Positions 5,041 through 63,558 of a stretch of 64,000 nt of DNA are shown here, in pieces (the stretch's first letter is position 1; each line of letters starts with the position of its first letter). This DNA comes from Naegleria gruberi (taxonomy: Eukaryota), in assembly GCA_000004985.1 (NCBI GenBank), contig GG738854.1; one strand, written 5' to 3'. The position numbers and the translations under genes are program-made. The notes below the pieces were generated by a model. That model was not told where the DNA came from, did not search any database, and saw only the letters and a program-made list of their open reading frames with translations.

Positions 5041-5328
5041 TTTGTTTTTCAATTTTTGAATTTGATTATCCGTCGGAAGCCTTCATATTCTCTTTCTCTC
5101 TCTAGCTGTGTATTAAGATGGATTCAATAGATTGTCTGATAATTTCTTGAAGTTATCTTAAATTGTAATAGAATTTGTGCTTATTGAAATTTTTATTTTT
5201 TAATTTTATTTGATGATTCGGAAAGTTTTTTTAAAAAAAACTTGCTGCTTTAATTATTATTGAATCCTTAATTAGCCTTGAAAACTTTGAAAGTTCTCCT
5301 GTCAGAGCATGTCAACCCATCAAAAAAA

Positions 5329-11300: not shown

Positions 11301-12928
11301 CTTCAATGTGTTTGAATTAATGGCTGCTCCAAACTGGGCACTATTATTAATAAACTGTGAATCAATAACCTTCAAACTGTCTGATGCTATCTCTGAAAAT
11401 TGTTGCAAGTCCAAATAACGAACTGCAGATGCACTGCTCGTTCCCTCAAAAACACATCCAATAATGGATCCATTCCTCACATTTTGTAAGAAGAGAGCTC
11501 CACCATCATTGTCCAAAAATTTTGTACCAACCACAGATGTAGCTTGTGAATCAGCAATAGCAAGAACAGGTAACGTGCCCATATTACTATTTTCCATAAA
11601 GGCAGAGTTTGCAACCAACACAATGTAATAATTTTGAATGGAAACAAAGTGACAGGTTGTGTAACTGAATTGAACATTGGTAATAAAAGCACTAGTACCT
11701 GTCAATGACTCACTACTCTTAACTTGTAAACTTCCAGTAGCATTAAAGTTGGTATCAGAGATTTTAACTTTGGAACACGTTGCACAAGTCATGGCACCAA
11801 CACTGTAACACTGACTTCCAGTGCAATTTGTTGCAAAATTGCTCTTCTCAATTGTGAACTGTCTAGCTGTGTGTCCAAAGATGAAATAGTGTTTTGGTGA
11901 TGTGGATGTGCACTTTTGAGTTGAGGCACCAAGATCTTTACTTTCATCCAAACCAATTGTTACATAACTGGATGCAACATTGAGTGTAAAGGAAACATTT
12001 CTGAATAAAGCTTCACAATTATTATCCAATTCAAAATCAATATATGATTCAGATGGTCCTAAATTCCTCACCACTTGCAAATTTTCATAAAAACAAGTGC
12101 CACCTGAACATTCAACATAAGAATCGACCAGTTTAGAATTTCTAATGACAATATCTGGTTGCCAAGTTGCCGAAAACACATCAAACATTCGATTCAACTT
12201 GTTCATCTCCACCTCTTCAAATATAACTCTTGTTGTGTAAATACTCGAAACATAATCATTCTCTACTGCAATCACAGCATTAACATCCCAATTTACAAAG
12301 GCAATATTGGTGAATGATATTTCCATTTTGAAAGGATTGATTCGTATAAAGGGAGAATAATCAGCACATGAAATGAAAGTCTTTGACAATCCATAAAAGT
12401 TGGCAATAATCTTGCTTTGGATAGCCTCTGAATTGTTATAGTATGGCAAGTCAATTGCACAATTATTACTACCATCACTCACATCTATATTATTCAATAA
12501 ATAAATATTTAATTCTTGTTCTTCCGCTATTATTACATGATAATAATTATAATAGTATTATTAGTATTAATTTACATATGATGATGATTATTATTAATTT
12601 ACATGATGATCATTAATTTACATTGAAAATCAACAAAATTACTATTCGCATATATAAAAACAAACTACCTACCTGTACTAGTCGTATTGAACAGCACACT
12701 CCACCTCTCCAGTACATATTTTAGTGAGTTACATGGCTGAGAAGGGGTAGAACAGGGAAAGAAGTTATTGTTACTGCTGCTACTAGCCTTCGGATCAATG
12801 TAGACACTACTCATTATCTTGGCAATTGTGGTGTTGATGGTCAAAATGTTGAGAAACGATAGCACCACGAGGATAGAAATCAATCGCCACACCTCATGAT
12901 CCCTTCGGGTCATCATTGAATGTCTCAT
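8340..12928 (-). CDS. Receptor-type protein kinase with Pmp-like beta-helix ectodomain, paralog 2
   Basis: Exon 1 is 12928..12673 and begins MRHSMMTRRDHEVWRLISILVVLSFLNILTI (signal anchor). The intron 12485..12672 runs GTAGGT..ATAG; an alternative acceptor would place the exon 2 boundary at 12526. Exon 2 is 12484..8340. The ectodomain (roughly 750 aa) has many GGAVF, GGAIL, GGAMY, GGALY and GGAIF repeats plus FSQN, FQYN and FLHN motifs. The transmembrane segment is ALLISLGVIVALGLTFIILLTTLCLYFF. The kinase domain is in one exon: IGQGGESVIF, VAVK, HRDLKPENIL, DFGLGRE, YMPPE, DSYSFGIIMWELL. There is a long insert between subdomains IX and XI. Stop is TAA. Confidence 0.7.
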
Positions 12929-38046: not shown

Positions 38047-38825
38047 TTAGTTCAATAATAAAATAGACGAAAGTTTTTTGTTCGAAAGATTTTAACTTCA
38101 CCACCACTGAAGATTTCTTACTCATTTACATATCAGAAGATACCAACACTCAGTTTTCGATATTTTACAAGAGGAACTTTCATAGTTTTGATAACTGAAG
38201 CAATTGTGAATACCACCAATATTAGACAAGAACCCAGAAGAACACCACTAACATCTTCTACAAACAACCACAAATTCCATGCCAATTTCTGTTCGGCCGA
38301 ATCGTCTAGATTTGTACAGATGATAACAGAATGAAATAGAACTTACAGTATCATGACTTTCAGCGTAGTCCATTCTTAAATTTTCCTATTGCCATAATAA
38401 TCCAATGATATTGGAAGGTAAGGATCACTTGGAATCAATAAGGATCTTGTTCTCAGTGCCATACTACTCAATTATTAAGAGTTCATTGTGAATTGGAAGC
38501 GCAATATTATCACACACAAGATTATGTCGGACATTTAAGGTATTATACTCTGTGTGAGAGGGAGAAATATTAAGCCACTGTACAGATCGGTCACCTACCC
38601 AACCACTATCAAACTCCACTTAATCAATGTCCAACGAATGGAGAATTAGTTTTGTGTGTGGTCATGAGAAGAGACATCAGTTTTAATGGAGGAAATGTTT
38701 GGCGGGAATGTTGTGGACTTGTTAATTTGTGCTTGCGAGATGATTCAACACCAATCGATTTAAAGATGTGTGTTGAATTGTTTGTGGAATCATCAAAAAA
38801 AAACAAGCTTAACACACAACTCAAT

Positions 38826-40226
38826 ATGACTGAGGAGAATATCAAGAAATTCTCTTGGGAAGAAATTGAGAAACACAACCATGAGGAAAGTGCTTGGTTG
38901 GTTATTGATGGAAAGGTTTATGATGTAACCAAGTTTATTCCTCATCATCCTGGTGGTGATTACTTGTTATTGGGAGCTGGCAGACATTCGACTGAATTGT
39001 TTCTCAGTAATCATCCAGCCAAAATCCTAAACAATTCGAAAGCTCTATTAGAAAAGTATTACATTGGAGAGGTTGAACAAGAAACAATCGTCACTAAAGA
39101 AATGGTTCAAAAGCAACATGTCAAGTATTCTTACAATCCACCAGATCAAACCAATTTCTATCTTGAATGTAGAGCTCAAGTTGACCAATATTTGAAAGAC
39201 AACAATCTCACTGCTAGAGATGTTCCTCAAATGTATCTCAAGATGATTCTTTCCCTGTGTATTTGGTTTATTCTATACTTGGGAACTTTCTATTATTTCG
39301 AATCAAAATTGCTCAGTTTCGTCGTTGCCATTGTTTGGGGTTGGTCCAATGCAAATATTGGTGTTAACATGATGCATGATGCTAATCATAGCTCCTTTTC
39401 CAATCATCCAACTATCAACAGAGTTGTGGCAGTTGTTTGTTTTGACATTTTAGGTGGTTCTTCCTATGTTTGGAAAATGATTCACTCAGTTGGCCATCAC
39501 GTAAACACAAATATTGAAGAACGTGATCCTGACATTCACACAGGAGAACCTCACTTTAGAAAAATCAAATCAGCTCAGAAACATCATTGGTGGTATGCCT
39601 ATCAACATTATTACTTGCCAGTTCTATATTGTTCCTTATTATTTGAGTTGGCATTTCGTGATTTCTTTGCCATGATGATTGGATCATGGGGAGGTGTCAA
39701 ATTTCAACCACCTCCAAAAGGAGAATATTTGCTCTTCTTTTCTACAAAGATTTGGTGGTTGACCTATTCATTGGCTTTCCCAATTTGGTTTTCTAATCAT
39801 TCAGTTGGAACTATTTTCATGTTGTGGTGTACTGCTTATATGGTTGCTTCATTCTTGTTGGTTTTAATTTTCCAAGTCAACCATGTCACAAATATTGCTG
39901 ATTCTTTCCATGTCAATCAACAAGATGGAATGGTTCATGCTGATTGGGCAGCAACTCAAGTAAGTGGATCGAGTAACTTTGCCTGTGGATCATGGTTATG
40001 GAATCACTTGTCAGGTGGCTTGTGTCATCAAGTAGAACATCATCTTTTCCCATCCATTAGTCATATCCATTATCCAAAGATTCAACCCATTGTTGAGAAG
40101 TGTGCTAAAAAGTATGGAATCAAGTATAATAGTTATGGAACTTTTTGGGAGGCCATTATTGGTCATTTCACATTATTAAGGGATATGGGTCAGAAGGGAA
40201 TTCAATCAAATTGGAAATCCATGTAA
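38826..40226 (+). CDS. Cytochrome b5-fused front-end fatty acid desaturase
   Basis: An N-terminal cytochrome b5 domain contains the HPGG heme-binding motif (VYDVTKFIPHHPGGDYLL). Three histidine boxes are present, HDANH, HSVGHH and QVEHH; the Gln in box 3 is typical of front-end (delta-4/5/6/8) desaturases. Four transmembrane segments are present. An alternative upstream ATG exists at 38664. Stop is TAA. Confidence 0.8.
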   Translation: MTEENIKKFSWEEIEKHNHEESAWLVIDGKVYDVTKFIPHHPGGDYLLLGAGRHSTELFLSNHPAKILNNSKALLEKYYIGEVEQETIVTKEMVQKQHVKYSYNPPDQTNFYLECRAQVDQYLKDNNLTARDVPQMYLKMILSLCIWFILYLGTFYYFESKLLSFVVAIVWGWSNANIGVNMMHDANHSSFSNHPTINRVVAVVCFDILGGSSYVWKMIHSVGHHVNTNIEERDPDIHTGEPHFRKIKSAQKHHWWYAYQHYYLPVLYCSLLFELAFRDFFAMMIGSWGGVKFQPPPKGEYLLFFSTKIWWLTYSLAFPIWFSNHSVGTIFMLWCTAYMVASFLLVLIFQVNHVTNIADSFHVNQQDGMVHADWAATQVSGSSNFACGSWLWNHLSGGLCHQVEHHLFPSISHIHYPKIQPIVEKCAKKYGIKYNSYGTFWEAIIGHFTLLRDMGQKGIQSNWKSM

Positions 40227-50344: not shown

Positions 50345-53077
50345 ATGCAAACTACATCTCTTCAAGAAAATTCAAACATTAGAAAAGAATTGTTCAACAA
50401 AAACAACTCCTCATCATTAAATTGTCAAAGCTCACATCATCAACATACAACTTTCTCAACTATCATGTGTTCCTCCTCAACAATGGAATCAAATTTTAAT
50501 TTACCTCCAAGCAACAAGAAGGAAGAGAAAAATCAACAAGAAAACAAAGAAGAAAAATACAGCAGTGCTGGTGGCGACAATGGAAAACATTATCAAGAAC
50601 AACAACGGATAGATGTTGCTGTAACATCATCATCAGCATCAGCATTGGAAGGAAAAGAGGATGGTATTACTCGGACAGTGTCTAGTTTAAATCCTTCTCC
50701 ATGTACAAATAATTATAATAATAATACAACAACAATAATAATAACCGATAATAATCAAAACGAGAGAGGAAAATTAGAAATGTATATTGATACTAATAAT
50801 TTACGTTTACCACTTTCTCCTTCTGCATTGTCTGTCTCCTCATCAACATCAGATGGCACACCAACTAAAATTCCAACCTCCACTAATTGCTCACCATCAC
50901 GACCTTTATCTACTATTTTGCATAATAATAATAATAATAACAATACTAATAGTGCCTTGCTCTCATCGAGTACATGGTGGAGAGAAAGATTATTCCCTAA
51001 GGAATTACTACCAAATTCTACTCTCACATCAGCACGAGCTTCATCATCAGCACTGAATTTCAACATAAGTCTCATCGATGAATCAACATTTGATACACTT
51101 GCTCCTTCATCATTGTCCTCTTCTCGTTTGGATGCTATTCATACATCTTCAGAGGGTGAGTTTTCAGAGGAAACACTCCTAGAACATATAAGCAAGGAGT
51201 TGTGTTCGAATATGCGTGAGGAAGAGCTTGAACAAGTTTCCACACCAGCTGTGGTTGACCATATATTACGAGAGATGAAGTTTTCAAAACAGAAATGTTC
51301 ACTAGTACACTTGGCAGCAAAACATAATCGTGTAGAACTCTTGCAGTGGTTTAAAAGATGCTGTTGCGATAAAAAGTGTTCCTACAAGCACATACCCATC
51401 TCTAAACTACTCAACTCTGACAAATCTTCATCAATAACGGATTCATCATTTTCTATTTTGGAAAGTAAGAGATTTAGCAGGAATTTTGGAAAAAACTTTA
51501 ATGTTGCCATAAGGCACTTCGACTCATTGGATGATGACAGTTCTTCCCAACATTCCAAACAGTGTCTACTTAAACAACAATCCTTGTGGTTTGCTTTGGA
51601 CCATTATTCTGCAACACCTCTCTTTTATTCTTGCAAGCATGCACAAGCCATGGAGGCAAGTGCTTTTCTGTTATCTCAACCAAGTGTCTCACAGAAACAG
51701 CTCAACCATCACCATGATCAATTTGGAAACCTTCCAATAACTATTGGATTTAGAAATGGAAATTTCAGACTATGTGACTTGTTGGTTTTGTTTGGAGCCA
51801 AAATTGATGTTACTTCAGGAATTCTTGCTGAAAGTCTACTTCACAAAGTTTGCAGAGATGGTGCAGATTTGGAGGTTGTTAAATATTTGGCTAGGTTTGT
51901 TTTATTCATATTTATTTTCAATATATCATCATTTATTCAATTCAGGAATGCACCAAAAGTCTTACTCAAAAGAAATCAAAGAGATGAAAGTGCACTGTTT
52001 GCCTGCATTAGGGATTTGAGAATGGTTCTCATTCCATCAAGTGGAGGCTCCTTCAGCAGTGATATAAGTCTTTTCCACAATAGAAAGAGTTCTAATGGAG
52101 TTAGTGATACATCATTCACTCTCCTTCATAATATTCTTTCCTATGGATCGGAATTGTTTGGAAGGGAAACATTTGAGAAGGCTGTTCTCATGAAAAACTC
52201 ATTCGGAATGAATATTTTAATGACGAGTATATTGTACAATGATATGGACGCAATGAAAGTGATTTGTCTTGGACTTTCCAACTATTGCAAACCTGGAGGC
52301 GCTAGAAAAGTTGATCTCAATACTTCACAAATGAGTGGAGATTCGACTGGAAGTGGTAGTAGTTCAGAGGGTATTGCTGCTGTGGATGATCAGATACCTT
52401 CTCCAAGAAAGAGAAATTCTCTCCGATTACGACTTCACCAGAGAATTTTATCGATGGATAAAAGGGATTCAAACAAAAGCATTCTGAAAACAATTGTATT
52501 CGATAAAGATAAGCAAGGAAAGACAATACTCCATCTCATAATTGAGACAGCTATTCAATTAGAAGATAATGGAGCATCATGGGACGATTTGATTGACTGG
52601 TTTGATGGATTCCAATGGCTTTGTTTGTGGCTAACTGAAGTTTTTTCACAAACGTTGAATGTTAGAACAAATGGTGAGTGGACTGCAGATTGTGGGCTGT
52701 GCCACTTTTTTGAAGCTAGAGACTTGCAAGGTTACTCACCATATGGAATGGTGGTATCCAAACAACCAAATGAGGAAATGAACTTTTTGGAAAAGGAGAG
52801 CACCGATGATAGAGTACTCTTCTGGCCAAGAGTTTTGGAGTTCATTCAAACAACGATAAAGAAGTGGGCAGTCTCTGAAAAGGTCAAGAATACATCTGAG
52901 AATAACCTGAATGGTTCTCGTAACAATTTCAGATATGCTGAAGTGACAGGAAGCAGGGGATTTTTAAATTCTGAATCAGATTCACTCGATTCCCTCTATG
53001 CAGATCAAGGTGAGGGAATTTTAGGCAAAATGAAAAGAAGATTCAAGAGAACTCAAAGTGTCGATTTGGACAAATAA
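50345..53077 (+). CDS. Ankyrin-repeat-containing protein with long low-complexity N-terminus
   Basis: 910-aa ORF. The N-terminal 300 aa are rich in N, S and T. Ankyrin-like units are present (SLVHLAAKHNRVELLQW, TPLFYSCKHAQAMEASAFLL, GNLPITIGFRNGNFRLCDLLVLFGAKID, SLLHKVCRDGADLEVVKYL). A probable 51-nt in-frame intron spans 51895..51945 (GTTTGT..TTCAG); it reads through as a hydrophobic junk segment if retained. Confidence 0.5.
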   Translation: MQTTSLQENSNIRKELFNKNNSSSLNCQSSHHQHTTFSTIMCSSSTMESNFNLPPSNKKEEKNQQENKEEKYSSAGGDNGKHYQEQQRIDVAVTSSSASALEGKEDGITRTVSSLNPSPCTNNYNNNTTTIIITDNNQNERGKLEMYIDTNNLRLPLSPSALSVSSSTSDGTPTKIPTSTNCSPSRPLSTILHNNNNNNNTNSALLSSSTWWRERLFPKELLPNSTLTSARASSSALNFNISLIDESTFDTLAPSSLSSSRLDAIHTSSEGEFSEETLLEHISKELCSNMREEELEQVSTPAVVDHILREMKFSKQKCSLVHLAAKHNRVELLQWFKRCCCDKKCSYKHIPISKLLNSDKSSSITDSSFSILESKRFSRNFGKNFNVAIRHFDSLDDDSSSQHSKQCLLKQQSLWFALDHYSATPLFYSCKHAQAMEASAFLLSQPSVSQKQLNHHHDQFGNLPITIGFRNGNFRLCDLLVLFGAKIDVTSGILAESLLHKVCRDGADLEVVKYLARFVLFIFIFNISSFIQFRNAPKVLLKRNQRDESALFACIRDLRMVLIPSSGGSFSSDISLFHNRKSSNGVSDTSFTLLHNILSYGSELFGRETFEKAVLMKNSFGMNILMTSILYNDMDAMKVICLGLSNYCKPGGARKVDLNTSQMSGDSTGSGSSSEGIAAVDDQIPSPRKRNSLRLRLHQRILSMDKRDSNKSILKTIVFDKDKQGKTILHLIIETAIQLEDNGASWDDLIDWFDGFQWLCLWLTEVFSQTLNVRTNGEWTADCGLCHFFEARDLQGYSPYGMVVSKQPNEEMNFLEKESTDDRVLFWPRVLEFIQTTIKKWAVSEKVKNTSENNLNGSRNNFRYAEVTGSRGFLNSESDSLDSLYADQGEGILGKMKRRFKRTQSVDLDK

Positions 53078-53288: not shown

Positions 53289-56200
53289 ATGTCTGTTGCA
53301 GAAGCTTCTAATAATGGTGCAGCTGCAACTACATTTATTGAAAGGAGTATTAATTTTAATGAATCATCAACCATACAACAATCATCATCACAACAACGAG
53401 AAAATCAACATGTGTCGGGAAGTTTTATAGGAAGCAATACGAGTAGTTCATCTAGCTCGACCAATTTTTCAGCAACAATGATGAAAAGTATTAAGGAAGC
53501 TATTGTGTCCTATATAATTTCAATGCAATACAAGCCACTGAGGCAGGGCAAAAAGTTTATGCTTCTCTCTGTTTTGTATCATTTGTATATAATGTGGATT
53601 TCCATCTTTTTACCAACACTAGGCGATTATAATTGGGGAGAATATGCAAATTGGATATTCAAGGCAGTAAATTATCCAGTAACCCTTTCACTAGATTTAA
53701 TTCCCTATGGTGGCATTGAGGCTTTGGGAGCAATTGTGTTTGCAATCAGTGCCCTATCTGTTCTTGTTGTTATAATGGCAGTTGCGAGTGTTCATAGGAC
53801 GAGTAAACACATTGAGAGGGTGAGATTAATAGTAATGGTGACTGGACTTGTTCTCTCTCTGTTGGGACCACTCTTTGCATTTATTCTGACGGGCTTTACA
53901 GATTGTGAATACAAGCAAAAGGTGTACTTTGAGAGTATAGATGATAAGGCATATGCTCTTTCTAGATATCCAGAAGCAGAGTGCTTTGGGGATAATATGT
54001 ACCTTTACATTATTTCAATTATTGCAGTATTCGGAATTTGTCTATCCATATTATGCACCTTAATTTCCTTCTCATCAAGTTGGAAGAGTGACATGGTATT
54101 CAAAACAGTTGTCCATTATCCATTATCATACTTGGTTATTAGTAATATTCTTCAAATGTTCATCATGTATTTTATTCATGATGAGTTCATGTATGGAAGA
54201 GCAATCCTTCACTTGATTATTTCAGCAAGTTGGATTCCTATACTATTCTATGAACTGCCCTTCCAATACAGATATGAAAATTCAATTTATTCTGGAGTGG
54301 GTTTTGCAAGAATAGGAGCATCAATTGGTTCTCTGATATCTTCCCTTGCCAACTCAGCTGACAATTCAGGTTTTGGTTTGGGAATGTTTGGCTTAACGTT
54401 CGCTCTTATTATCATTTCATTCATTGGTGGAGTAATAGGAATGGAATTATACATTAGATTATCTACTCACAAGATTAGAAGTTACATGTTGTCTATTGTT
54501 GAGAAAACTCTATCTGTTAGTGGATCATTGCCTTCGAAATTCAAAGAAAGAGCCAAATACATTCTGGAAAAAGAGGCCACTTCAATTTACTCCCATTTCA
54601 TTGAAACACAACAGGCAGGATATTTAAGAATATTTATTCGATTCAGCATTGATCAAAACTCTAAAAACAGCTCAGAAGCCATCCTCACAAACACTGATTT
54701 ATCTCTGTATTTCATTAAGGGTGCGTCAACTCAAAGATCATTCAACGATAGCAAAACTCTTCTCTATTCATCCATGTTAATTTATTTCAACTATGGAGAT
54801 GGTAATTTAGGATCAATGTATGCAAAAGGGTTGTTGAAAATCTTGGCAAAGCAAAAATTGAATATACCAGAAGTAATTATGTTAACAGAGTTTTCTAAGG
54901 AAATTAAGGATGAGAATAGTGTAAATTCATCTGATCTCGAACAATTATTGAATAAGGTAGAGAGTAATATAGCTGAATTGAAGTCCCTCCATAAGGCCTT
55001 CTGGAAAGAATATTTGCAAGATGTAATTGAAGTGGGAACTTTGGAATCGATTAATAACAAGTGTTCACAACTGATGAGCCAATGCGAAACTATTTTCAAT
55101 AATAGGCTTTCCAGATACAAACACAATAAGAATTTCCTCAGAGCGTATGCACAATTTTTAAACGAAATCAAATTTGACAAGGAAACTGCCTTTGAAATAT
55201 TCCAAGACGCAGCCATTGTTGACGAAGATGAGCCATCTAAAAAACGTGTTCTTGCTAAGAGTAATTTATTCACAGAATATGGTAAACAGCATTCTGAAAC
55301 CAATTTGGGGTTTTCTCTAGATGGCTTAAAGGCTAGCAACCAAAAGAGTATGGACATTGAAACAATTCATGAAGATCAAATGTTGGATGGAGTTGAGAAT
55401 GATCCACTTGCAAAACGGGAGTTCATTTTCAAAAGTGCTCTCTCCCAACCACAACAAGGAGGATATCATATGGGATCTGTTATCCTGTTCTGCTTTATAT
55501 CCTTCTCTTTTGTGCTCCTTGCCTTAGTTTTGAATGTTTATTATTCAGTGGAAGTTCTTTCAAATGTCAAGTTTGTTCAGCAAGTTTGTGAGCCAACTGT
55601 TTCTTCATATGCCATTTTGAAACAAATCAGAAATAATCAAATACTCCTTCAAGCTAAAAATCAGGGTCTAGATGTTGATGAAACAGATATTATGGGTATT
55701 CTTAAGGACGAGACAAACGAAAATATTACTTCCATACAATCTGTTTGGAAGGAGAGACTTAATTTCTATGTTGAACATATTGAACATGTTAAAAAGATGT
55801 CACAAGGTAAAATTGTTGGAAAATTCACACCTGAAATGTATGAAGATTACAATAGTGAAACAAATGAAATATTTGTTCCTGTGATTCAAACAAAGAATCA
55901 AAATTCATTCATTGAGGTCATTAAGAAGAATGTTTCACTCTCTGAAATATCATCACTCTTGATTGATATTGTTGAAAATTATCCATCAGGAGGATACAAT
56001 GAAACATTGAAAGAATATGATTTCATGTTGGTATTCTTGAATAGGGAAACTTTCACAAATGCCTTTGTGAAAACATGTTTCAGTTTCTTGGAAAGATGTG
56101 AACTTGACTCCAAAAATTTCAACAATTACTACCTATACTTTTATGTTTCTGTATTGTCATTTTACATTCTTTACACAGCCATCTATATTCTCTATGTAAG

Positions 56201-58316
56201 AATTGAATTCTCATTTATCACTAGAACCATTAGATTAATGGAACGCAGTATTTCAAAGGATATTGTAGGTAAAATCTATCAAGATTTGGCAAAGAAAGTA
56301 GAAGAAAATGCTTCTTTGGGATTTCTCAAATCAATAATCAGCCAACCAAAAGTGTTTTCTGTTTTTTGTATTGCTTGTTTGGCTTTTCTTACAATACTTG
56401 CATCTTCAATGATGTTCGTAGAGTTGAGAATTAATTCTGATCTAGGATATTCAACAATGTTGAGTGTGCATAAGACCGCCGAAAATCTTGTTTTGGTTCA
56501 GTCAATTGGATACAAACTAAATGAGATTTTCTTTTCCACTCTATCACCCTCTTTATATAATGACCCTATCTTAATCAATGGAACCCTCTTAGATTATTAC
56601 AGGGTGGAGGTGAGATACAATGTAACAGATTTGAGAAGAAGTTTTAACGAATTGATTTATGGTAAGCTTGGAGGAAATTCAGCAATTTTAGGAATGATAC
56701 CAAGAATTGATCAGATTATTACAGGAACTGATTGTTCTTCTGGCAATTGTACAAGTTTGGAAAACTCTTTGGACGAATTTACAATTGGATCTAGCAAGTT
56801 CAACGAAGATTTGCTTAAAGGAACTTTTACAGAGGAAGAGTTGGTTTTAAAGAATGCTGTTGTGGATGAATTGAGCCACCACCTAAGTGTAGACTTTCTT
56901 GAATTTTTGGCCTTGTTTACCATTGCAAGATCAATACCTTCTACTGCTATTGCACTAATTTTCAGTATTCTTGGATTTCTCACAATAGTTATTTTCTATT
57001 GGTTACTGGTTCGAGTGTTTCAAATTCATTGGAATGATGTATTCCATTTAAGAAGCATGTTGAACTATGTAGATTATGACTACTTGGATTCTTATGACTC
57101 TTTAAGAAACTTTATTCTATACCATCAACTGCCTTCTAGAAACCTGTTCAAAAAGAAGAATAAGATTGCCTCAGCAGAGGGTGACGAATCGAAGGTGAAG
57201 AATATTCTCAATGCAGCAGTTGACGGAGCTATTCTTTGTAATAGTACATGTGATATTGAAATATTCAATCCAGCAGCTCAAAGAATGTTTGGATGCAAAC
57301 AATCAGATACTTTGGGAACTCCAATTTTCACTCTCTTTGATAAAGAATCGAGGACAGAGTTGGAGAGAGTCATTTCTGAATTGATTAAGAATGCCAAATC
57401 GACAACATCTTCTGAAAGTCTTGGTGAAACTGTTGAATTGGATTGTGTGAGAAAGAACTTGACAAAATTCCCTGCGAAAATCAATTTGTTCTCAACACTG
57501 TTTGATGGAAAACCAGTTGTGACATGTTTCATTAAGGATGCAACTTCTGAAAAGAAACAAAATGCATTGTTGGCTGAAGAAAAGAAAAAATCTGAAAATC
57601 TATTGAGATCTATTTTGCCAGAAAGTGTTGCCAATAGATTGAAATCTGGTGAAACATTCATTGCTGAGAAATTTGCAGATATTACTTGTTTCTTTTCTGA
57701 CATGGTTGGATTCACTCAAATGTCTTCAACTCTCAATCCAACTCAATTGGTTGGAATGTTAAATAATATTGTGAATGGATTTGATGCCTTAACAGACAAA
57801 TATAGTTTGGAAAAGATCAAGACAATTGGAGATGCCTATTTCTGTGTTGGAGGAATTGGAAATACACAATCTGATCACCCAGAAAGAATACTTCGTTTCT
57901 CAATGGACATATTCTTAGTAGTACGTAACTATAACGAGGAGAATGGGAAAGAATTTGGACATCAAATCAATATTCGAGTTGGAGTGAATACAGGAAGTGC
58001 AGTTGCAGGTGTGATTGGTACAAAGAAATTTGCCTATGATTTGTGGGGTGATACCATCAACACTGCTTCTCGAATGGAATCAACATCAATTGCTGGAAGA
58101 ATTCAAATTTCCAGATCAACTTATGAAAGAGTTTATGATATGGGTCTTGAATTTGAAGAAAGAAGTGTTGAAGCAAAAGGAAAGGGTTTGTGTCTCACTT
58201 ATTTAGTCAAATCTCATCACCATGCACAGGCCATAGTTTCTGATAACGAAATCATTGATTCTGACCTCGAGGTTTCCCTAACTACAAAACCAGAGGATGC
58301 AAAGGCAGAGATATAA
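53289..58316 (+). CDS. Polytopic membrane protein with PAS domain and class III adenylyl cyclase catalytic domain, paralog 1
   Basis: Single 1675-aa ORF from ATG to TAA. The N-terminal cluster has about ten transmembrane segments, and there are more downstream (about aa 745, 950, 1020 and 1220). A PAS-like fold is present (NILNAAVDGAILCNSTCDIEIFNPAAQRMFGC...PVVTCFIKDATSEKK). The cyclase core has FADITCFFSDMVGFT, KIKTIGDAYFCVGG, RVGVNTGSAVAGVIG and FAYDLWGDTINTASRMES. The metal-binding Asp residues, the transition-state Asn/Arg and the Lys...Asp specificity pair are all present, indicating ATP specificity. Confidence 0.85.
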   Translation: MSVAEASNNGAAATTFIERSINFNESSTIQQSSSQQRENQHVSGSFIGSNTSSSSSSTNFSATMMKSIKEAIVSYIISMQYKPLRQGKKFMLLSVLYHLYIMWISIFLPTLGDYNWGEYANWIFKAVNYPVTLSLDLIPYGGIEALGAIVFAISALSVLVVIMAVASVHRTSKHIERVRLIVMVTGLVLSLLGPLFAFILTGFTDCEYKQKVYFESIDDKAYALSRYPEAECFGDNMYLYIISIIAVFGICLSILCTLISFSSSWKSDMVFKTVVHYPLSYLVISNILQMFIMYFIHDEFMYGRAILHLIISASWIPILFYELPFQYRYENSIYSGVGFARIGASIGSLISSLANSADNSGFGLGMFGLTFALIIISFIGGVIGMELYIRLSTHKIRSYMLSIVEKTLSVSGSLPSKFKERAKYILEKEATSIYSHFIETQQAGYLRIFIRFSIDQNSKNSSEAILTNTDLSLYFIKGASTQRSFNDSKTLLYSSMLIYFNYGDGNLGSMYAKGLLKILAKQKLNIPEVIMLTEFSKEIKDENSVNSSDLEQLLNKVESNIAELKSLHKAFWKEYLQDVIEVGTLESINNKCSQLMSQCETIFNNRLSRYKHNKNFLRAYAQFLNEIKFDKETAFEIFQDAAIVDEDEPSKKRVLAKSNLFTEYGKQHSETNLGFSLDGLKASNQKSMDIETIHEDQMLDGVENDPLAKREFIFKSALSQPQQGGYHMGSVILFCFISFSFVLLALVLNVYYSVEVLSNVKFVQQVCEPTVSSYAILKQIRNNQILLQAKNQGLDVDETDIMGILKDETNENITSIQSVWKERLNFYVEHIEHVKKMSQGKIVGKFTPEMYEDYNSETNEIFVPVIQTKNQNSFIEVIKKNVSLSEISSLLIDIVENYPSGGYNETLKEYDFMLVFLNRETFTNAFVKTCFSFLERCELDSKNFNNYYLYFYVSVLSFYILYTAIYILYVRIEFSFITRTIRLMERSISKDIVGKIYQDLAKKVEENASLGFLKSIISQPKVFSVFCIACLAFLTILASSMMFVELRINSDLGYSTMLSVHKTAENLVLVQSIGYKLNEIFFSTLSPSLYNDPILINGTLLDYYRVEVRYNVTDLRRSFNELIYGKLGGNSAILGMIPRIDQIITGTDCSSGNCTSLENSLDEFTIGSSKFNEDLLKGTFTEEELVLKNAVVDELSHHLSVDFLEFLALFTIARSIPSTAIALIFSILGFLTIVIFYWLLVRVFQIHWNDVFHLRSMLNYVDYDYLDSYDSLRNFILYHQLPSRNLFKKKNKIASAEGDESKVKNILNAAVDGAILCNSTCDIEIFNPAAQRMFGCKQSDTLGTPIFTLFDKESRTELERVISELIKNAKSTTSSESLGETVELDCVRKNLTKFPAKINLFSTLFDGKPVVTCFIKDATSEKKQNALLAEEKKKSENLLRSILPESVANRLKSGETFIAEKFADITCFFSDMVGFTQMSSTLNPTQLVGMLNNIVNGFDALTDKYSLEKIKTIGDAYFCVGGIGNTQSDHPERILRFSMDIFLVVRNYNEENGKEFGHQINIRVGVNTGSAVAGVIGTKKFAYDLWGDTINTASRMESTSIAGRIQISRSTYERVYDMGLEFEERSVEAKGKGLCLTYLVKSHHHAQAIVSDNEIIDSDLEVSLTTKPEDAKAEI

Positions 58317-58515
58317 TGAATCCATTTTGGTAATATAGAATCATTTTATTTGCCAATATATTTTCCTTTTTTGTCACTTAACGATTCTGACAACCAATGA
58401 TGGCGATGTTAGTGAGTTACAGAAATGGCGGGTAAAACATGAAATCTCAATTCTTATTAAAAAAAACATCATTAACCCTTCTTGAATACAAAAAGATATT
58501 GGTTTGCTTTTTAAA

Positions 58516-61500
58516 ATGTCCGGGAGTGATGAGTTGGAGGCCTCTGCTATAGAAGACGACCAAAGATCTAATTATTTCGAATCGAGGACTCATATGAAAG
58601 GAAATGGAGAAGGCTCAAGTATTGTTGGAAGTGCACTAAGTGTTCAATCGAATAATAGTACAATAGCCTCGACAACTATGAGAACAGTGCAAACTGGAAT
58701 ATTGACTTTTATTTTGGCTCTACAGGATAAATCATACAAGAAATCAAAGAGGTTTATTTTTATTTCAATACTGTATCATTTGTATATCATTTGGACTTCA
58801 ATCTTCTTACCAACACTAGGCGAATACAATTGGGGAGAGTATGGAAGTTGGATTTTCAAAGCACTTAATTATCCAATCACATTTTCATTAGATTTGGTGC
58901 CCTATGAAGAGAGTGCTGCAATTGCAGGTGTCATTATGGCTGTCATCTTGTTGGGTTTGTTTTTTGTGTCATTTTCTGCTTGGACTGTTTATAGAAATAG
59001 CAAGTTGGTTGAAAAGATGAAAGTGGTAATGGCTGTGTCGAGTTTGGTGTTTTCAGTGCTGAGCAAACCATTTGCTTTTGTTTTGGCTGGTTTTATTGAT
59101 TGTGACTTTTCAAAGACAGTTTACTTTGAAGATATTGATGATAATACTAATGCACTTTCTCGATTCCAAACAGTTGCTTGTTTTGGAGGTAACACGTACT
59201 TGTATGCACTTTCGATTATTTCAATGCTTGCATTTTCTCTAGTGATACTTTCAACTCATTTTGCCTATTCTCCTAGTTGGAGGAGTAAGGTTGTGTTTCA
59301 TACAGTTGTTGGTTGGCCCATTACCTATTTGGTTATTTCAAACATGCTTGAGATTTATCTAATATTCTTTATTCCAAAATCTGAAATTTGGGCAAGAGCT
59401 ACTTTACATTTGGTAGCAGCCCTGACATTTGTTCCAATGATTCTAATTACACTTCCCTTTCAGAGACGTATTGAAAATTCCTTCTATCTTGCTGTAGCTT
59501 TTGCAAAGGTTGGATCTTCAATTGGTTCACTCATTTCTTCCTTGGTCAATTCTAATAATAAGTGGGATTTAGGTCTTGGAATGTCAGGTTTAACAATTGG
59601 TCTCATTATTTTAGGTTTCTGTGTTGGATTCATTGTGATGGAGTTGTATATACTAAGAACAATGGCTTTCATTAGACACAAGATGATTAAGGCCATCGAG
59701 AGAGGAGTTTCCATTTCAGATACTGCTCAAACTCAACTTTCAGAGTCTGCAAAAATGGGCCTTGAAAGAGAAGCTACAAATATCTATTCCTCACTTCATG
59801 AATCACAAAGTTTGAACAAGCTCAAAATATTTATTAGGTTTAACATAATCCGAAGAAGCAAGCAAACAAAGGCAATACTAGACGATACGGATATGTGTCT
59901 CGCATTTATTAAGGGTGTTTCTCATCAGAAAACATTCAATGATCCTTCTCTAATATTGTTCTCCAGTTTACTTATCTATGTCAACCATCCAGATGAATCG
60001 AATAGCTCAATTTTTGCCAATAGTTTGTTGAAAAAAACTACGCGAGTCAAGTTATCATTCTTTGAGAAAGTTACCCTTGGTGAGGTTACCAAAGAATTGA
60101 ACATCTCTAAAAATGGTAAAGTTGCAAGAAACACAACAGACTTGGAATCATTGCTAGTTAGAGTTGATTCAAATTTTTCGCAACTCAAATCTCTTCACAA
60201 ATCCTTCTGGAAAGAATTTTTACAAGATGTTGTTGACACTACTAACTTGGAAGTTATCAATAGTAAATGTGCTCAATTGATGGCTGACTCTGAAAATATT
60301 TTCCACAATAGAATTTCAAGATATAAGAATAACAAAACCTTCTTGAGATCATATGCTCGCTTTCTAGATGAAATCAAGTTTGACAAGGATCAAGCTGCTG
60401 AACTCTTCCAAGAAGCAGCAACTATGGAAGAGGAAGAGCTTGCCACAAAGAGAAGGAGGCAGAGAAAGTTTAGTCGTGTTGTGCCCTATGATGGACCTGT
60501 AGTAAGCGTTGAACCTCCTGCATTCTCTCTCGATGGGTTGAGAAAGGGAACAAATGAACCAATTACAAACCTAATGGATGATGATTTTGATGATCATATG
60601 TTGGATGGTGTTGAGAATGAACCTGCAACTAAGAGAGAGTATGTTTTCAAAGCGGCTCTAGCACAAAAGACCAACGGAGAGTTGCACGTGGCCTCTGTAG
60701 TAATGTTCTGCCTTCTTTCATTTGCAATAATACTTGTTTCCCTTGTGTTGAATGTGTATTATTCAGAGGAAGTTCTTTCAAATGTCAAGTTTGTCCAACA
60801 AGTTTGTGAACCAACTGTTTCTTCATATGCAATCTTGAAACAAATCAGAAATAATCAAATACTAATCCAAGCAAAGAATCAGGGTATTGGTGTTCAGGAA
60901 GCTGAACTAATTGACGTCTTGGAAATAGAAACAGATAGCAACATTACTGTAACAAGTTTAAATGAGATTTGGAAGGAGAGACTTAATTTCTATGTTGAAC
61001 ATATTGAACATGTTAAAAAGATGTCACAAGGTAAAATTGTTGGAAAATTCACACCTGAAATGTATGAAGATTACAATAGTGAAACAAATGAAGTATTTGT
61101 TCCTGTGATTCAAACAAAGAATCAAAATTCATTCATTGAGGTCATTAAGAAGAATGTTTCACTCTCTGAAATTTCATCACTCTTGATTGATATTGTTGAA
61201 AATTATCCATCAGGAGGATACAATGAAACATTGAAAGAATATGATTTCATGTTGGTATTCTTGAACAGGGAAACTTTCACAAATGCCTTTGTGAAAACAT
61301 GTTTCAGTTTCTTGGAAAGATGTGAACTTGACTCTGTGCAATTTGATAACACTTTCCTCTATTTCTTTGTTGGTTCTGCCTGTTTTTATATTCTGTCCTC
61401 CCTAATTTACATTATTTACATCAGGATTCAATTCACTCTAGTTGCCAACACACTGGCATTATACGAAAGACATTTAACAAAAGACTTGGTTGGTAAGATC

Positions 61501-63558
61501 TACCAAGAATTAGGAAAGAATGTTGATGAGAATTCTACCACTAGCTTCCTTAAATCTTTCATTACCAAACCAAAGGTATTTTCTTTTGTTTGTATCCTTT
61601 CTTTGGCTTTTCTTACAATTCTTGCATCATCAATGATGTTTTTGGAGTTGAGATTGAACTCTGACTTGGGATTTTCAACCATGTTGAGTGTGCGCAAGAC
61701 TGCAGAATCATTAGTGTTGGCCCAATCAATTGGGCACAAGTTGAATGAGCAGTTCATATCAACACTTTCTTCATCTATTTACAATGATCCCTTGCTTGTA
61801 AACAACTCAACAATGAATCTATTCAGATATGAAGTGAGATATAATGTTACTGATTTTAGAAGAACATATAATGAGCTGATTTACGGAAAAATAGGAGTTT
61901 CACCAACCATTCTTGGCGCCATTCCAAAGATTGATGAAATTATTACAGGAACAGACTGTACTGCTGGAAACTGCACAAGTTTGGAAAACACAGTCGATGA
62001 GTTCACTATTAAATCAAGCAAGTACAATGAGGATTTGATGAAAGGTGTTTTCTCTCCAGAGGAGCTAATTTTGAAAAACACAGTAGTTGATGGTTTGGTA
62101 CATCATTTGTGTGTTGATTTGTTAGAGTTTTTGGCCTTGTTTACCATTGCTAGATCAACACCATCAACAATTATTGCACTTCTATTCGGTATATTTGGAT
62201 TTTCTGCCGTAGTGTTATTTTTTGGCTTGTTGAACAAGGTGTTCCACAATCATTGGAATGATATTTTCCATTTAAGAAACATGTTGAATTATGTTGGATA
62301 TGATCACTTGGATTCCAGTGATCCTTTGAGAAACTATGCTTTGTACAATCAGTTACCAGGTAAGAATATATTCAAAAAGAAGAATAAGATTGCCTCAGCA
62401 GAGGGTGATGAATCCAAAGTAAGAAATATTCTCAATGCAGCAGTTGATGGAGCAGTGTTGTGTAACAGTGCATGCGATATTGAAATATTCAATCCAGCAG
62501 CTCAAAGAATGTTTGGATGCAAACAATCAGATACTTTGGGAACTCCAATTTTCACTCTCTTTGATAAAGAATCGAGGACAGAGTTGGAGAGAGTCATTTC
62601 TGACTTGATTAAGAATGCCAAATCGACAACATCTTCTGAAAGTCTTGGTGAAACTGTTGAATTGGATTGTGTGAGAAAGAACTTGACAAAATTCCCTGCA
62701 AAAATCAATTTGTTTTCAACACTGTTTGATGGAAAACCAGTTGTGACATGTTTCATTAAGGATGCAACTTCTGAAAAGAAACAAAATGCATTGTTGGCTG
62801 AAGAAAAGAAAAAGTCTGAAAATCTATTGAGATCTATTTTGCCAGAAAGTGTTGCCAACAGATTGAAATCTGGTGAAACATTCATTGCTGAGAAATTTGC
62901 AGATATTACCTGTTTCTTTTCTGACATGGTTGGATTCACTCAAATGTCTTCAACCCTCAATCCAACTCAATTGGTTGGAATGTTAAATAATATTGTGAAT
63001 GGATTTGATGCCTTAACAGACAAATATAGTTTGGAAAAGATCAAGACAATTGGAGATGCCTATTTTTGTGTTGGAGGAATTGGAAATACACAATCTGATC
63101 ACCCAGAAAGAATGCTTCGTTTCTCAATGGATATTTTCCAAATATTGAGAACCTACAATGAACAGAATAGAAAGGAATTTGGACATCAAATCAATATTCG
63201 AGTTGGAGTGAATACAGGAAGTGCAGTTGCAGGTGTGATTGGTACAAAGAAATTTGCCTATGATTTGTGGGGTGATACCATCAACACTGCTTCTCGAATG
63301 GAATCGACATCAATTGCTGGAAGAATTCAAATTTCCAGATCAACTTATGAAAGAGTTTATGATATGGGTCTTGAATTTGAAGAAAGAAGTGTTGAAGCAA
63401 AAGGAAAGGGTTTGTGTCTCACTTATTTAGTCAAATCTCATCACCATGCTCAAGCAATCATTACGGATGATGTTGTTGATTTTGTTCCAGAAGAAGAAAA
63501 GGATGAGCAAGACTTGGAAGTAAGCTATCCTGTTAGGTCCAGTAAAGATGAAGAATAA
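58516..63558 (+). CDS. Polytopic membrane protein with PAS domain and class III adenylyl cyclase catalytic domain, paralog 2 (tandem duplicate)
   Basis: The ATG at 58516 (MSGSDELEAS...) opens a 1667-aa protein in the frame of ORF 58504..63558 (1684 aa as tracked from TTG 58504). The stop is TAA. The architecture is co-linear with paralog 1. The N-terminal membrane domain is about 60 to 70% identical to paralog 1 at the protein level. The 3' half contains long stretches about 99% identical at the nucleotide level. The cyclase core is identical except for one patch (ILRFSMDIFLVVRNYNEENGKEF versus MLRFSMDIFQILRTYNEQNRKEF). Confidence 0.85.
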   Translation: MSGSDELEASAIEDDQRSNYFESRTHMKGNGEGSSIVGSALSVQSNNSTIASTTMRTVQTGILTFILALQDKSYKKSKRFIFISILYHLYIIWTSIFLPTLGEYNWGEYGSWIFKALNYPITFSLDLVPYEESAAIAGVIMAVILLGLFFVSFSAWTVYRNSKLVEKMKVVMAVSSLVFSVLSKPFAFVLAGFIDCDFSKTVYFEDIDDNTNALSRFQTVACFGGNTYLYALSIISMLAFSLVILSTHFAYSPSWRSKVVFHTVVGWPITYLVISNMLEIYLIFFIPKSEIWARATLHLVAALTFVPMILITLPFQRRIENSFYLAVAFAKVGSSIGSLISSLVNSNNKWDLGLGMSGLTIGLIILGFCVGFIVMELYILRTMAFIRHKMIKAIERGVSISDTAQTQLSESAKMGLEREATNIYSSLHESQSLNKLKIFIRFNIIRRSKQTKAILDDTDMCLAFIKGVSHQKTFNDPSLILFSSLLIYVNHPDESNSSIFANSLLKKTTRVKLSFFEKVTLGEVTKELNISKNGKVARNTTDLESLLVRVDSNFSQLKSLHKSFWKEFLQDVVDTTNLEVINSKCAQLMADSENIFHNRISRYKNNKTFLRSYARFLDEIKFDKDQAAELFQEAATMEEEELATKRRRQRKFSRVVPYDGPVVSVEPPAFSLDGLRKGTNEPITNLMDDDFDDHMLDGVENEPATKREYVFKAALAQKTNGELHVASVVMFCLLSFAIILVSLVLNVYYSEEVLSNVKFVQQVCEPTVSSYAILKQIRNNQILIQAKNQGIGVQEAELIDVLEIETDSNITVTSLNEIWKERLNFYVEHIEHVKKMSQGKIVGKFTPEMYEDYNSETNEVFVPVIQTKNQNSFIEVIKKNVSLSEISSLLIDIVENYPSGGYNETLKEYDFMLVFLNRETFTNAFVKTCFSFLERCELDSVQFDNTFLYFFVGSACFYILSSLIYIIYIRIQFTLVANTLALYERHLTKDLVGKIYQELGKNVDENSTTSFLKSFITKPKVFSFVCILSLAFLTILASSMMFLELRLNSDLGFSTMLSVRKTAESLVLAQSIGHKLNEQFISTLSSSIYNDPLLVNNSTMNLFRYEVRYNVTDFRRTYNELIYGKIGVSPTILGAIPKIDEIITGTDCTAGNCTSLENTVDEFTIKSSKYNEDLMKGVFSPEELILKNTVVDGLVHHLCVDLLEFLALFTIARSTPSTIIALLFGIFGFSAVVLFFGLLNKVFHNHWNDIFHLRNMLNYVGYDHLDSSDPLRNYALYNQLPGKNIFKKKNKIASAEGDESKVRNILNAAVDGAVLCNSACDIEIFNPAAQRMFGCKQSDTLGTPIFTLFDKESRTELERVISDLIKNAKSTTSSESLGETVELDCVRKNLTKFPAKINLFSTLFDGKPVVTCFIKDATSEKKQNALLAEEKKKSENLLRSILPESVANRLKSGETFIAEKFADITCFFSDMVGFTQMSSTLNPTQLVGMLNNIVNGFDALTDKYSLEKIKTIGDAYFCVGGIGNTQSDHPERMLRFSMDIFQILRTYNEQNRKEFGHQINIRVGVNTGSAVAGVIGTKKFAYDLWGDTINTASRMESTSIAGRIQISRSTYERVYDMGLEFEERSVEAKGKGLCLTYLVKSHHHAQAIITDDVVDFVPEEEKDEQDLEVSYPVRSSKDEE

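What the first reader, a model, noticed from the sequence alone, without database searches (positions are those of the whole stretch)
53289..58316. Cyclase architecture: large two-cluster polytopic membrane region, then PAS, then a fully competent ATP-specific class III catalytic domain
The catalytic domain keeps both metal-binding aspartates (FFSDMVGFT and TIGDAY), the transition-state Asn/Arg (NTASRME) and the Lys/Asp specificity pair (KIKTIG ... YDLWGDT). By established class III cyclase rules this predicts a homodimeric adenylyl cyclase rather than a guanylyl cyclase. It is preceded by a PAS fold and by a membrane region of roughly 1250 aa. That region has two hydrophobic clusters (about 10 TM at the N-terminus and 4 to 5 more at about aa 745 to 1250) separated by large soluble regions. 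This is not the 6+6 topology of metazoan transmembrane adenylyl cyclases. It is also unlike the single-pass receptor cyclases of kinetoplastids. It may be a distinct sensory membrane-module family feeding a PAS-gated cyclase.
Basis: partly seen in the sequence, partly recalled or inferred. Interest (0 to 1): 0.55.

Follow-up and report, generated by a model that had tools for sequence, protein, structure and literature searches.

The report
Naegleria 12-TM PAS adenylyl cyclase
This is an intact gene of the amoeba Naegleria gruberi for a large membrane-bound enzyme predicted to make cAMP; it is one ordinary member of a big, already catalogued but experimentally unstudied family found across Naegleria and its relatives.

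Summary
The ORF 53289..58316 (+) is real, uninterrupted and 1675 aa long. The window is Naegleria gruberi, because the next ORF downstream is identical to an N. gruberi predicted protein.

- **Catalytic end.** Pfam finds a class III cyclase domain (2e-51), a PAS domain and a TmcB-type TPR domain. All six canonical catalytic residues are present and align correctly to solved cyclases: D1471, D1515, K1511, D1584, N1591, R1595. This predicts a homodimeric, ATP-specific cyclase.
- **Topology.** I find 8 TM helices (six strongly hydrophobic, two weaker), then a cytosolic helical/TPR region of about 330 aa, then 4 TM helices. The last four bracket two large, Cys- and sequon-bearing extracellular loops, which AlphaFold2 folds into a helical ectodomain (pLDDT 80).
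- **Not a new family.** An exhaustive profile search found 491 representative proteins. About 50 of the 156 sequences inspected locally carry the module plus PAS and cyclase. Named members come from N. gruberi (at least 11 with this gene), N. fowleri, N. lovaniensis, Willaertia, Acrasis and Pharyngomonas.
- **PAS.** It lacks the FixL-type heme histidine.
- **Tandem copy.** The neighbouring paralog shares ~99% identical gene-conversion tracts with this gene.

Verdict: a new member of a known, uncharacterised kind, of moderate to low interest.

The parts
53289..58316 (+). Complete coding sequence, 1675 aa plus stop, with no intron needed
   Evidence: ORF list. It aligns end to end with full-length paralogs of 1560-1810 aa.
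53289..53546 (+). N-terminal Ser/Asn-rich low-complexity tail (aa 1-86), predicted cytosolic and poorly conserved
   Evidence: Translation. It does not align among paralogs. The side of the membrane follows from the even TM count (inference).
53547..54464 (+). First membrane cluster of 8 predicted TM helices (about aa 87-111, 140-169, 175-201, 237-260, 277-295, 298-322, 328-353, 361-392). It carries the family signature LPFxxRxENSxYxGxxxAKxGxSIGSLISSLxN at TM6-TM7 and a Cys pair (C206/C232) in the TM3-TM4 loop that is invariant in the four-sequence Naegleria alignment.
   Evidence: Hydropathy scan, AF2 helices, conservation. No Pfam family matches.
54465..55460 (+). Cytosolic helical region (aa 393-724). 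It contains the TmcB-type TPR repeats (Pfam PF25474, aa 540-647 = 54906-55229), followed by a disordered acidic linker.
   Evidence: Pfam E 1.2e-12 to 1.3e-13, above the curated cut-off. AF2 gives helices, then pLDDT below 50 for model residues 561-640.
55461..57032 (+). Second membrane module: TM9 (aa 725-756), extracellular loop A (757-948), TM10 (949-970), short cytosolic hairpin (971-1014), TM11 (1015-1048), extracellular loop B (1049-1214), TM12 (1215-1248). The two loops form one mostly helical ectodomain with a single beta-hairpin.
57033..57185 (+). Juxtamembrane linker (aa 1249-1299) between TM12 and PAS, with the conserved motif LRxMLNY
   Evidence: Alignment consensus.
57186..57563 (+). 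PAS domain (aa ~1300-1425)
   Evidence: Pfam PAS_9 E 6.5e-13. NCBIfam sensory_box 28.5 bits against 22.9. The closest solved relatives are the FixL/DosP heme PAS domains (E 1e-07), but the proximal His position is Leu and the domain has no His.
57555..57662 (+). Helical connector before the catalytic domain (aa ~1423-1458: KKQNALLAEEKKKSENLLRSILPESVANRLKSGE). It corresponds to the coiled-coil 'signalling helix' / cyclase-transducer element.
   Evidence: Sub-threshold match to the C-terminal end of Pfam HNOBA (E 0.005). It aligns with the pre-catalytic helix of AC9 C2. The functional label is inference from established knowledge.
57663..58211 (+). Class III nucleotidyl cyclase catalytic domain (aa 1459-1641) with D1471, K1511, D1515, D1584, N1591, R1595
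   Evidence: Pfam E 2e-51. PDB hits are AC9 at 1.9e-66 and chains labelled only 'Adenylate cyclase' (e.g. 5o5k_A) at 7.8e-47, which I take from memory to be mycobacterial Rv1625c-type cyclases. Residue positions and conservation in all 8 full-length paralogs checked.
58516..63558 (+). Tandem paralog (1680 aa), identical to an N. gruberi 'predicted protein'. It is 66% identical overall to the target but about 99% identical in two tracts.
55744..56110 (+). Gene-conversion tract 1 (ectodomain loop A): 364 of 367 nt identical to the paralog at 60968-61334
   Evidence: The flanking DNA is 57% and 68.5% identical.
57252..58225 (+). Gene-conversion tract 2 (PAS plus cyclase): 98.7% and 99.6% identical to 62476-63449, interrupted by a 95-nt patch at 81%

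Best explanation
The gene encodes a receptor-type, homodimeric class III (IIIa-like) adenylyl cyclase of Naegleria gruberi.

Each chain has 12 predicted TM helices with both ends in the cytosol:
- An 8-TM bundle of unknown function.
- A cytosolic TmcB-type TPR/helical domain.
- A 4-TM unit whose helices extend outward into a ~350-aa, disulfide- and glycan-bearing helical ectodomain built from two loops.

The last TM helix leads through a conserved linker into a PAS domain. A helical transducer element follows, then a single catalytic domain.

Because one domain carries both the metal-binding and the substrate/transition-state residues, two chains must pair head to tail. That gives two symmetric ATP sites.

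The most likely mode of action is that a signal received by the membrane/ectodomain module changes the register of TM12. The signal could be an extracellular ligand or a membrane property. The change would pass through the PAS dimer and the transducer helix and alter the catalytic dimer interface, and so cAMP output.

Shown: the ORF, the domains, the catalytic residues, family membership and distribution. Inferred: topology, dimerisation, the direction of signalling, and that the membrane module is sensory at all.
For: - Intact ORF.
- Pfam cyclase, PAS and TPR_TmcB all score above their curated cut-offs.
- All six catalytic residues align to AC9 C1/C2. They are invariant in all 8 full-length paralogs examined.
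- Only one catalytic domain per chain.
- The 8+4 TM layout comes from hydropathy and AF2.
- Conserved Cys residues and sequons sit only in loops predicted to be outside, and the charge bias fits the model.
- The same architecture is conserved across Heterolobosea. It includes a single transcript from Pharyngomonas marked 'ORF type: complete'.
- The Dictyostelium family namesake tmcB is cited as a regulator of the cAMP pathway (PMC8516963; PMC12750705, citing Muramoto et al. 2005).
Against: - There is no biochemical or expression evidence.
- The 8-TM bundle and both loops match no Pfam, NCBIfam or PDB sequence family.
- Foldseek finds nothing significant for either model.
- The PAS domain has no recognisable cofactor residues.
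- The AF2 alignments held only 7 sequences. The N-terminal bundle is modelled with low to moderate confidence.
- Two of the eight N-terminal helices are only weakly hydrophobic, so the parity and the side of the N-terminus are uncertain.
Confidence: 0.7

Rival explanations
1. The membrane module is a transporter or channel rather than a sensor. The protein would then be bifunctional, like the ion-channel or P-type-ATPase cyclase fusions of ciliates and apicomplexans, with transport activity coupled to cAMP synthesis.
For: - The 8-TM bundle has a strongly conserved polar motif (ENS...AK.G.SIGSLISS) at TM6-TM7, conserved from Naegleria to Acrasis and Pharyngomonas.
- The weak Foldseek hits are all membrane transporters or channel-like proteins: TTYH, EAAT/ASCT2 and Otop1.
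Against: - None of these hits is significant (E >= 0.046, TM-scores about 0.1).
- No Pfam, NCBIfam or PDB transporter family is matched.
- No internal repeat typical of transporters was noticed. This was not formally tested.
Confidence: 0.12
2. The membrane module mainly anchors, scaffolds or targets the enzyme, for example to the flagellar or another specialised membrane, with partners bound by the TPR domain. The cytosolic PAS domain would be the real sensor.
For: - TPR repeats are protein-interaction modules.
- One paralog carries the name FM180, which I take from memory to denote the flagellar-motility-associated gene set of the N. gruberi genome paper.
- The PAS domain sits directly upstream of the transducer helix.
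Against: - The ectodomain is large and conserved in its Cys framework but divergent in sequence between paralogs. Identity falls to 19-26% among paralogs over this module. That pattern suits ligand diversification.
- The PAS domain lacks known cofactor residues and is among the most conserved parts of the protein.
Confidence: 0.15
3. The enzyme is a guanylyl cyclase, a dual-specificity cyclase, or an inactive pseudo-cyclase.
For: Public automatic names for paralogs read 'Guanylate cyclase domain-containing protein'. This only reflects the name of the Pfam family.
Against: - The Lys/Asp pair at the substrate-specifying positions, both metal Asp residues and the Asn/Arg are all present and correctly aligned.
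- By established knowledge, guanylyl cyclases carry Glu/Cys or Glu/Ser-type residues at those positions.
Confidence: 0.04
4. The long ORF is an artefactual or recent fusion of two genes: a TmcB-like membrane protein and a PAS-cyclase.
For: Some N. fowleri annotations list the two halves as separate neighbouring genes, FDP41_006142 and FDP41_006143.
Against: - Here the frame is open throughout.
- The split N. fowleri pair exists as one 1651-aa product in another annotation.
- Full-length fusions occur in six genera, including one transcriptome-derived complete ORF.
Confidence: 0.02

Closest known systems
Heterolobosean 'TmcB-like module + PAS + class III cyclase' paralog family (e.g. N. gruberi XP_002682792.1, XP_002670998.1, XP_002672713.1; N. 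fowleri XP_044562704.1; Acrasis kona KAL0483827.1 'adenylate cyclase'; Willaertia magna KAL9658602.1; Pharyngomonas kirbyi EP00761_P000870)
   Same: They align end to end at 27-66% identity. Domain order, catalytic residues and the TM6-TM7 signature motif are the same.
   Different: Nothing categorical; this is simply another paralog. Its exact product is not on record in the protein collection queried. Parts of it have been homogenised with its tandem neighbour.
Dictyostelium TmcB/TmcC ('tiny macrocysts') proteins, the source of Pfam PF25474
   Same: The cytosolic TPR region matches PF25474 over 108 of 125 profile positions, above threshold. tmcB is cited as a regulator of the cAMP signalling pathway in sexual development (PMC8516963, PMC12750705).
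   Different: As far as I know, TmcB has no cyclase domain (memory, not tested). Whether its TM regions are homologous to the 8+4 TM module here could not be tested, because no TmcB sequence was retrievable.
Mycobacterial Rv1625c and mammalian membrane adenylyl cyclases (class IIIa)
   Same: They are the best-scoring solved relatives of the catalytic domain. The catalytic residue set is identical, and a helical transducer element precedes the domain.
   Different: Rv1625c has a 6-TM anchor and no PAS. Mammalian enzymes have 6+6 TM and two complementary half-domains (C1, C2) in one chain. Here there are 12 TM arranged 8+4, large ecto-loops, a TPR domain, a PAS domain and a single catalytic domain.
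Bacterial NIT (NasR) and four-helix-bundle chemoreceptor/histidine-kinase sensor domains
   Different: There is no sequence-level match and Foldseek does not reproduce the hits. Here the domain is assembled from two separate loops of a 4-TM unit. Designed helical bundles score similarly, so the resemblance may be generic.
FixL / DosP heme-PAS oxygen sensors
   Same: They are the closest solved and NCBIfam relatives of the PAS domain (E 1e-07 to 2e-07).
   Different: The heme-ligating histidine is replaced by Leu, and the domain contains no His.

Membership tests
Class III nucleotidyl cyclase, homodimeric ATP-specific type | Catalytic domain matching PF00211 above the curated threshold | tested here: met
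   174.6 bits against 21.9, aa 1459-1641.
Class III nucleotidyl cyclase, homodimeric ATP-specific type | Two metal-binding aspartates | tested here: met
   D1471 and D1515 align with the AC9 C1 'faDivgf' and 'lgDcyy' aspartates.
Class III nucleotidyl cyclase, homodimeric ATP-specific type | Lys/Asp adenine-specifying pair | tested here: met
   K1511 (K-T-I-G-D) and D1584 (Y-D-L-W-G) align with the AC9 C2 Lys and Asp.
Class III nucleotidyl cyclase, homodimeric ATP-specific type | Transition-state Asn and Arg | tested here: met
   N1591 and R1595 align with AC9 C2 'vNiasRm'.
Class III nucleotidyl cyclase, homodimeric ATP-specific type | cAMP formation and dimerisation | not testable with these tools
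   Requires an enzyme assay and a structure.
Heterolobosean TmcB-like-PAS-cyclase family | Full-length collinear alignment with members, including the 8+4 TM module | tested here: met
   BLASTP over 1420-1770 aligned columns to more than 25 members. The profile search matched positions 1-1192 in many proteins.
TmcB/TmcC family (Dictyostelium) | PF25474 TPR_TmcB domain | tested here: met
   48.3-51.4 bits against a cut-off of 27, profile positions 14-121 of 125.
TmcB/TmcC family (Dictyostelium) | Homology of the polytopic membrane regions to TmcB itself | not testable with these tools
   No Dictyostelium TmcB sequence could be retrieved. The word-indexed searches returned only Naegleria proteins, and only the top 150 of 491 exhaustive hits are listed.
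Metazoan transmembrane adenylyl cyclase | 6+6 TM with two catalytic half-domains, C1 and C2 | tested here: not met
   One catalytic domain and an 8+4 TM layout.
Kinetoplastid receptor adenylyl cyclase | Single-pass topology with a periplasmic-binding-protein-like ectodomain | tested here: not met
   12 predicted TM helices and no such domain in Pfam.
Heme-binding PAS (FixL/DosP type) | Proximal histidine ligand on the F-helix | tested here: not met
   The aligned position is Leu and there is no His in aa 1300-1430.
NIT / 4HB_MCP extracellular sensor domains | Sequence-profile match, or robust structural match by two methods | tested here: inconclusive

The most novel reading that the evidence does not exclude
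The TmcB-type polytopic module is a dedicated upstream sensor or regulator of class III adenylyl cyclases, and it is older than the split between Discoba and Amoebozoa. In Heterolobosea it is fused to PAS-cyclase. In Dictyostelium it is a separate protein. The fusion would then act as a 'Rosetta stone': it would explain why tmcB mutants disturb cAMP signalling, and it predicts that TmcB controls a Dictyostelium cyclase by direct contact. The two-loop helical ectodomain would be a eukaryotic counterpart of bacterial NIT/four-helix-bundle ligand sensors, diversified into dozens of paralogs to read different environmental cues.
Probability: 0.25. Interest if true: 0.6.

Novelty: new member of a known kind. 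Interest (0 to 1): 0.35.

Why it matters
Naegleria species are reported to carry about a hundred nucleotidyl cyclases; PMC9928731 counts at least 81. Almost nothing is known about what they sense.

This analysis gives a corrected domain and topology map for one large subfamily: 8 TM, a TPR region, 4 TM with a helical ectodomain, PAS, and a homodimeric adenylyl cyclase. The architecture is conserved across Heterolobosea.

It also points to a testable functional link between the TmcB module and cAMP synthesis. For the pathogen N. fowleri, which has many members, such surface-exposed cyclases could be of practical interest.

For the window itself the result is mostly ordinary. It is a well-formed paralog in a tandem pair that is undergoing gene conversion.

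Tried and rejected
- **Word-indexed homolog searches** with the membrane region returned only 3, 5 and 1 proteins. Hydrophobic and low-complexity words swamp the candidate list. The third search, aimed at named non-heterolobosean relatives such as Dictyostelium TmcB, was wasted.
- **First exhaustive-search submission** failed because the profile exceeded 1200 positions. It was repeated after trimming.
- **Exact-product look-ups** for the target and for its paralog found nothing.
- **The afdb50 fold library** was unavailable, so the taxonomic spread of structural relatives could not be obtained that way.
- **Foldseek against PDB** with the 1170-aa model and with the 535-aa model gave no significant match. 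The recurring TTYH hits (E 0.13-1.3, TM about 0.1) were rejected as evidence.
- **Profile search of the module against PDB sequences** gave nothing.
- **Relaxed Pfam and NCBIfam scans.** The relaxed Pfam scan of each sub-region found nothing beyond TPR_TmcB. An NCBIfam scan of the whole protein found nothing beyond PAS matches.
- **HAMP in the TM10-TM11 cytosolic hairpin.** I considered it and rejected it. AF2 shows one helical extension plus a low-confidence loop, and Pfam finds no HAMP.
- **Heme or LOV-type PAS.** Rejected: there is no His and no NCRFLQ-type motif.
- **Literature.** Neither the Muramoto 2005 tmcB paper nor the N. gruberi genome paper is held. Searches found no paper describing this architecture.
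Full report
**What is there.** The stated coordinates hold one uninterrupted ORF, 53289..58316 on the + strand, of 1675 aa beginning with ATG. A second ORF of 1684 aa follows 187 bp downstream (58504..63558). From its first Met at 58516 it is identical to a 1680-aa 'predicted protein' of Naegleria gruberi (P0001). The window is therefore N. gruberi DNA. This fits the 31-38% G+C and the Asn/Ser-rich proteins. Neighbouring ORFs are ordinary eukaryotic genes: an ankyrin protein, receptor-like kinases, an RCC1 protein and a cytochrome-b5/desaturase fusion.

**The catalytic end.** Pfam places a class III cyclase domain at aa 1459-1641 (E 2e-51) and a PAS domain at aa 1312-1419 (E 6.5e-13).
- Against solved structures, the best relatives of the catalytic region are both halves of mammalian AC9. 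Next come AC8, AC5 and chains labelled only 'Adenylate cyclase', which I take from memory to be mycobacterial Rv1625c-type enzymes. These are class IIIa enzymes.
- In the printed alignments the query's FFSD and TIGD aspartates align with the two C1 metal aspartates. Its KTIG lysine, YDLWG aspartate, and the Asn and Arg of NTASRM align with the C2 substrate-specifying and transition-state residues.
- The positions are D1471, K1511, D1515, D1584, N1591 and R1595. The same residues occur in all eight full-length paralogs I inspected.
- There is one catalytic domain per chain and it holds both halves of the active site. By the established rules for class III cyclases, this predicts a head-to-tail homodimer with two ATP sites.
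- The segment just before the domain (aa ~1423-1458) gives a sub-threshold match to the end of the HNOBA model (E 0.005). It aligns with the pre-catalytic helix of AC9 C2. I take it to be the usual helical transducer element; this is inference.

**The PAS domain.** Its nearest solved and NCBIfam relatives are the heme-PAS domains of FixL and DosP (E about 1e-07). However, the position of the heme-ligating histidine is Leu, and the whole domain has no histidine. No LOV-type cysteine motif is present either. What it binds, if anything, is unknown, so 'PAS-gated' is a hypothesis.

**The membrane region.** A hydropathy scan and two AlphaFold2 models agree on the layout.
- The first cluster holds eight helices between aa 87 and 392. 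Six are strongly hydrophobic and two weaker.
- A soluble, largely helical region follows (aa 393-724).
- Four further TM helices follow at aa 725-756, 949-970, 1015-1048 and 1215-1248.
- The cyclase must be cytosolic. The four-helix unit therefore places aa 393-724 and the short 971-1014 hairpin inside, and the two long loops (757-948 and 1049-1214) outside.
- This is consistent with the conserved cysteines in those loops (C767, C930, C1149, C1154), three N-x-S/T sequons in each, and a net negative charge. The hairpin carries net positive charge.
- A Cys pair in the TM3-TM4 loop (C206/C232), invariant in the four-sequence Naegleria alignment, fits an N-in, 8-TM arrangement.
- The topology is therefore 8+4, not roughly 10 plus 4-5.

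**What the module resembles.**
- The cytosolic region matches Pfam PF25474, 'TmcB, TPR repeats', over nearly the whole model and above the curated threshold. Nothing else in the first 1290 aa matches Pfam, NCBIfam or any PDB sequence.
- The 1170-aa AF2 model is only moderately confident (pLDDT 68), and Foldseek found no significant PDB match.
- The 535-aa model of the 4-TM unit is good (pLDDT 80.4, pTM 0.77). It shows TM helices continuing as long extracellular helices, plus one beta-hairpin.
- Designed helical bundles score in the same range, and Foldseek does not reproduce these hits. I therefore treat this as a plausible analogy (a helical-bundle ectodomain sensor), not as membership.

**How common it is.** An exhaustive HMMER search with a 7-sequence profile of the membrane module found 491 representative proteins (50%-identity clusters) at E <= 0.001, and 105 at E <= 1e-30.
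- Local domain mapping covered the 156 sequences held locally (the best hits plus the seven found earlier). About fifty carry the module together with PAS and cyclase.
- Many of the short 'module-only' hits that I could check are split gene models or contig fragments. For example, N. fowleri FDP41_006142 plus 006143 equals the 1651-aa CAG4713405.1.
- Named members come from N. gruberi (ten besides the target), N. fowleri, N. lovaniensis, Willaertia magna, Acrasis kona and Pharyngomonas kirbyi.
- The Pharyngomonas member comes from a transcriptome and is marked a complete ORF, which argues against an annotation fusion.
- The architecture is thus old within Heterolobosea. It is already in public databases with automatic names such as 'Guanylate cyclase domain-containing protein' and 'TmcB/TmcC TPR repeats domain-containing protein'.
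- I found no paper describing it. Genome papers only count Naegleria cyclases, for example at least 81 in PMC9928731.

[quoted passage not shown] The source is Muramoto et al. 2005, cited in PMC8516963 and PMC12750705. A TmcB-type module covalently fused to an adenylyl cyclase in another supergroup would fit a direct functional coupling. I could not obtain a TmcB sequence, so only the TPR-level relationship is tested.

**Tandem pair.** The two copies are 66% identical in protein but mosaic in DNA.
- 55744-56110 is 99.2% identical, 57252-57855 is 98.7% and 57951-58225 is 99.6%.
- The rest is 57% and 68.5% identical.
- Near-identity at all codon positions in sharply bounded tracts indicates recent gene conversion. 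The tracts cover part of ectodomain loop A and the PAS-cyclase core.

**Verdict.** The inference of a homodimeric, ATP-specific cyclase is well supported. The suggestion of a distinct new module family is not: this is one more paralog of a large, catalogued but uncharacterised heterolobosean family. The sensory role of the membrane module and the role of the PAS domain remain inferences.

Noticed in passing
window 58516-63558 (+), versus 53289-58316: The tandem paralog is 66% identical overall. It contains sharply bounded tracts of ~99% DNA identity (55744-56110, 57252-57855, 57951-58225) amid 57-68% identity elsewhere. This indicates recent gene conversion over part of the ectodomain and the PAS-cyclase core.
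   Followed up: yes
window 53289-58316: The exact product of the target ORF is not on record in the assembly/protein collection. The 90%-identity cluster searches return only its paralog as best hit (58-59% identity). The gene may lack a model in the public N. gruberi protein set.
   Followed up: partly
P0007 (N. gruberi NAEGRDRAFT_68774): One paralog of the family is named 'Uncharacterized protein FM180'. I take this, from memory, to be the label of the genome paper's flagellar-motility-associated gene set. It hints that at least one member is linked to the flagellate stage.
   Followed up: no
N. fowleri FDP41_006142 / FDP41_006143; FDP41_000410 / FDP41_000411: Several N. fowleri family members are annotated as two adjacent genes in one annotation and as a single product of about 1650-1700 aa in another (CAG4713405.1, CAG4711552.1). 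The split models are probably errors.
   Followed up: partly
window 50345-53077 (+): A 910-aa Asn/Ser-rich protein with weak ankyrin repeats lies immediately upstream, 211 bp from the cyclase start. No link to the cyclase is evident.
   Followed up: partly
window 8340-12497 (-), 2329-5052 (-), 16679-18313 (-): Three ORFs with protein-kinase domains. The largest (1385 aa) has a long N-terminal region with a Chlamydia-PMP-type repeat match, like a receptor kinase. Two of the ORFs contain only part of the kinase domain, which suggests introns or truncated ORFs.
   Followed up: no
window 38652-40226 (+): A cytochrome b5 / fatty-acid desaturase fusion protein (front-end desaturase type).
   Followed up: no
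P0147 (871 aa, source unknown): The Pfam TPR_TmcB model also hits a generic SIR2-like/TPR protein in seven partial stretches. Short matches to PF25474 are therefore not specific to TmcB relatives. The near-full-length match in the target is more meaningful.
   Followed up: partly
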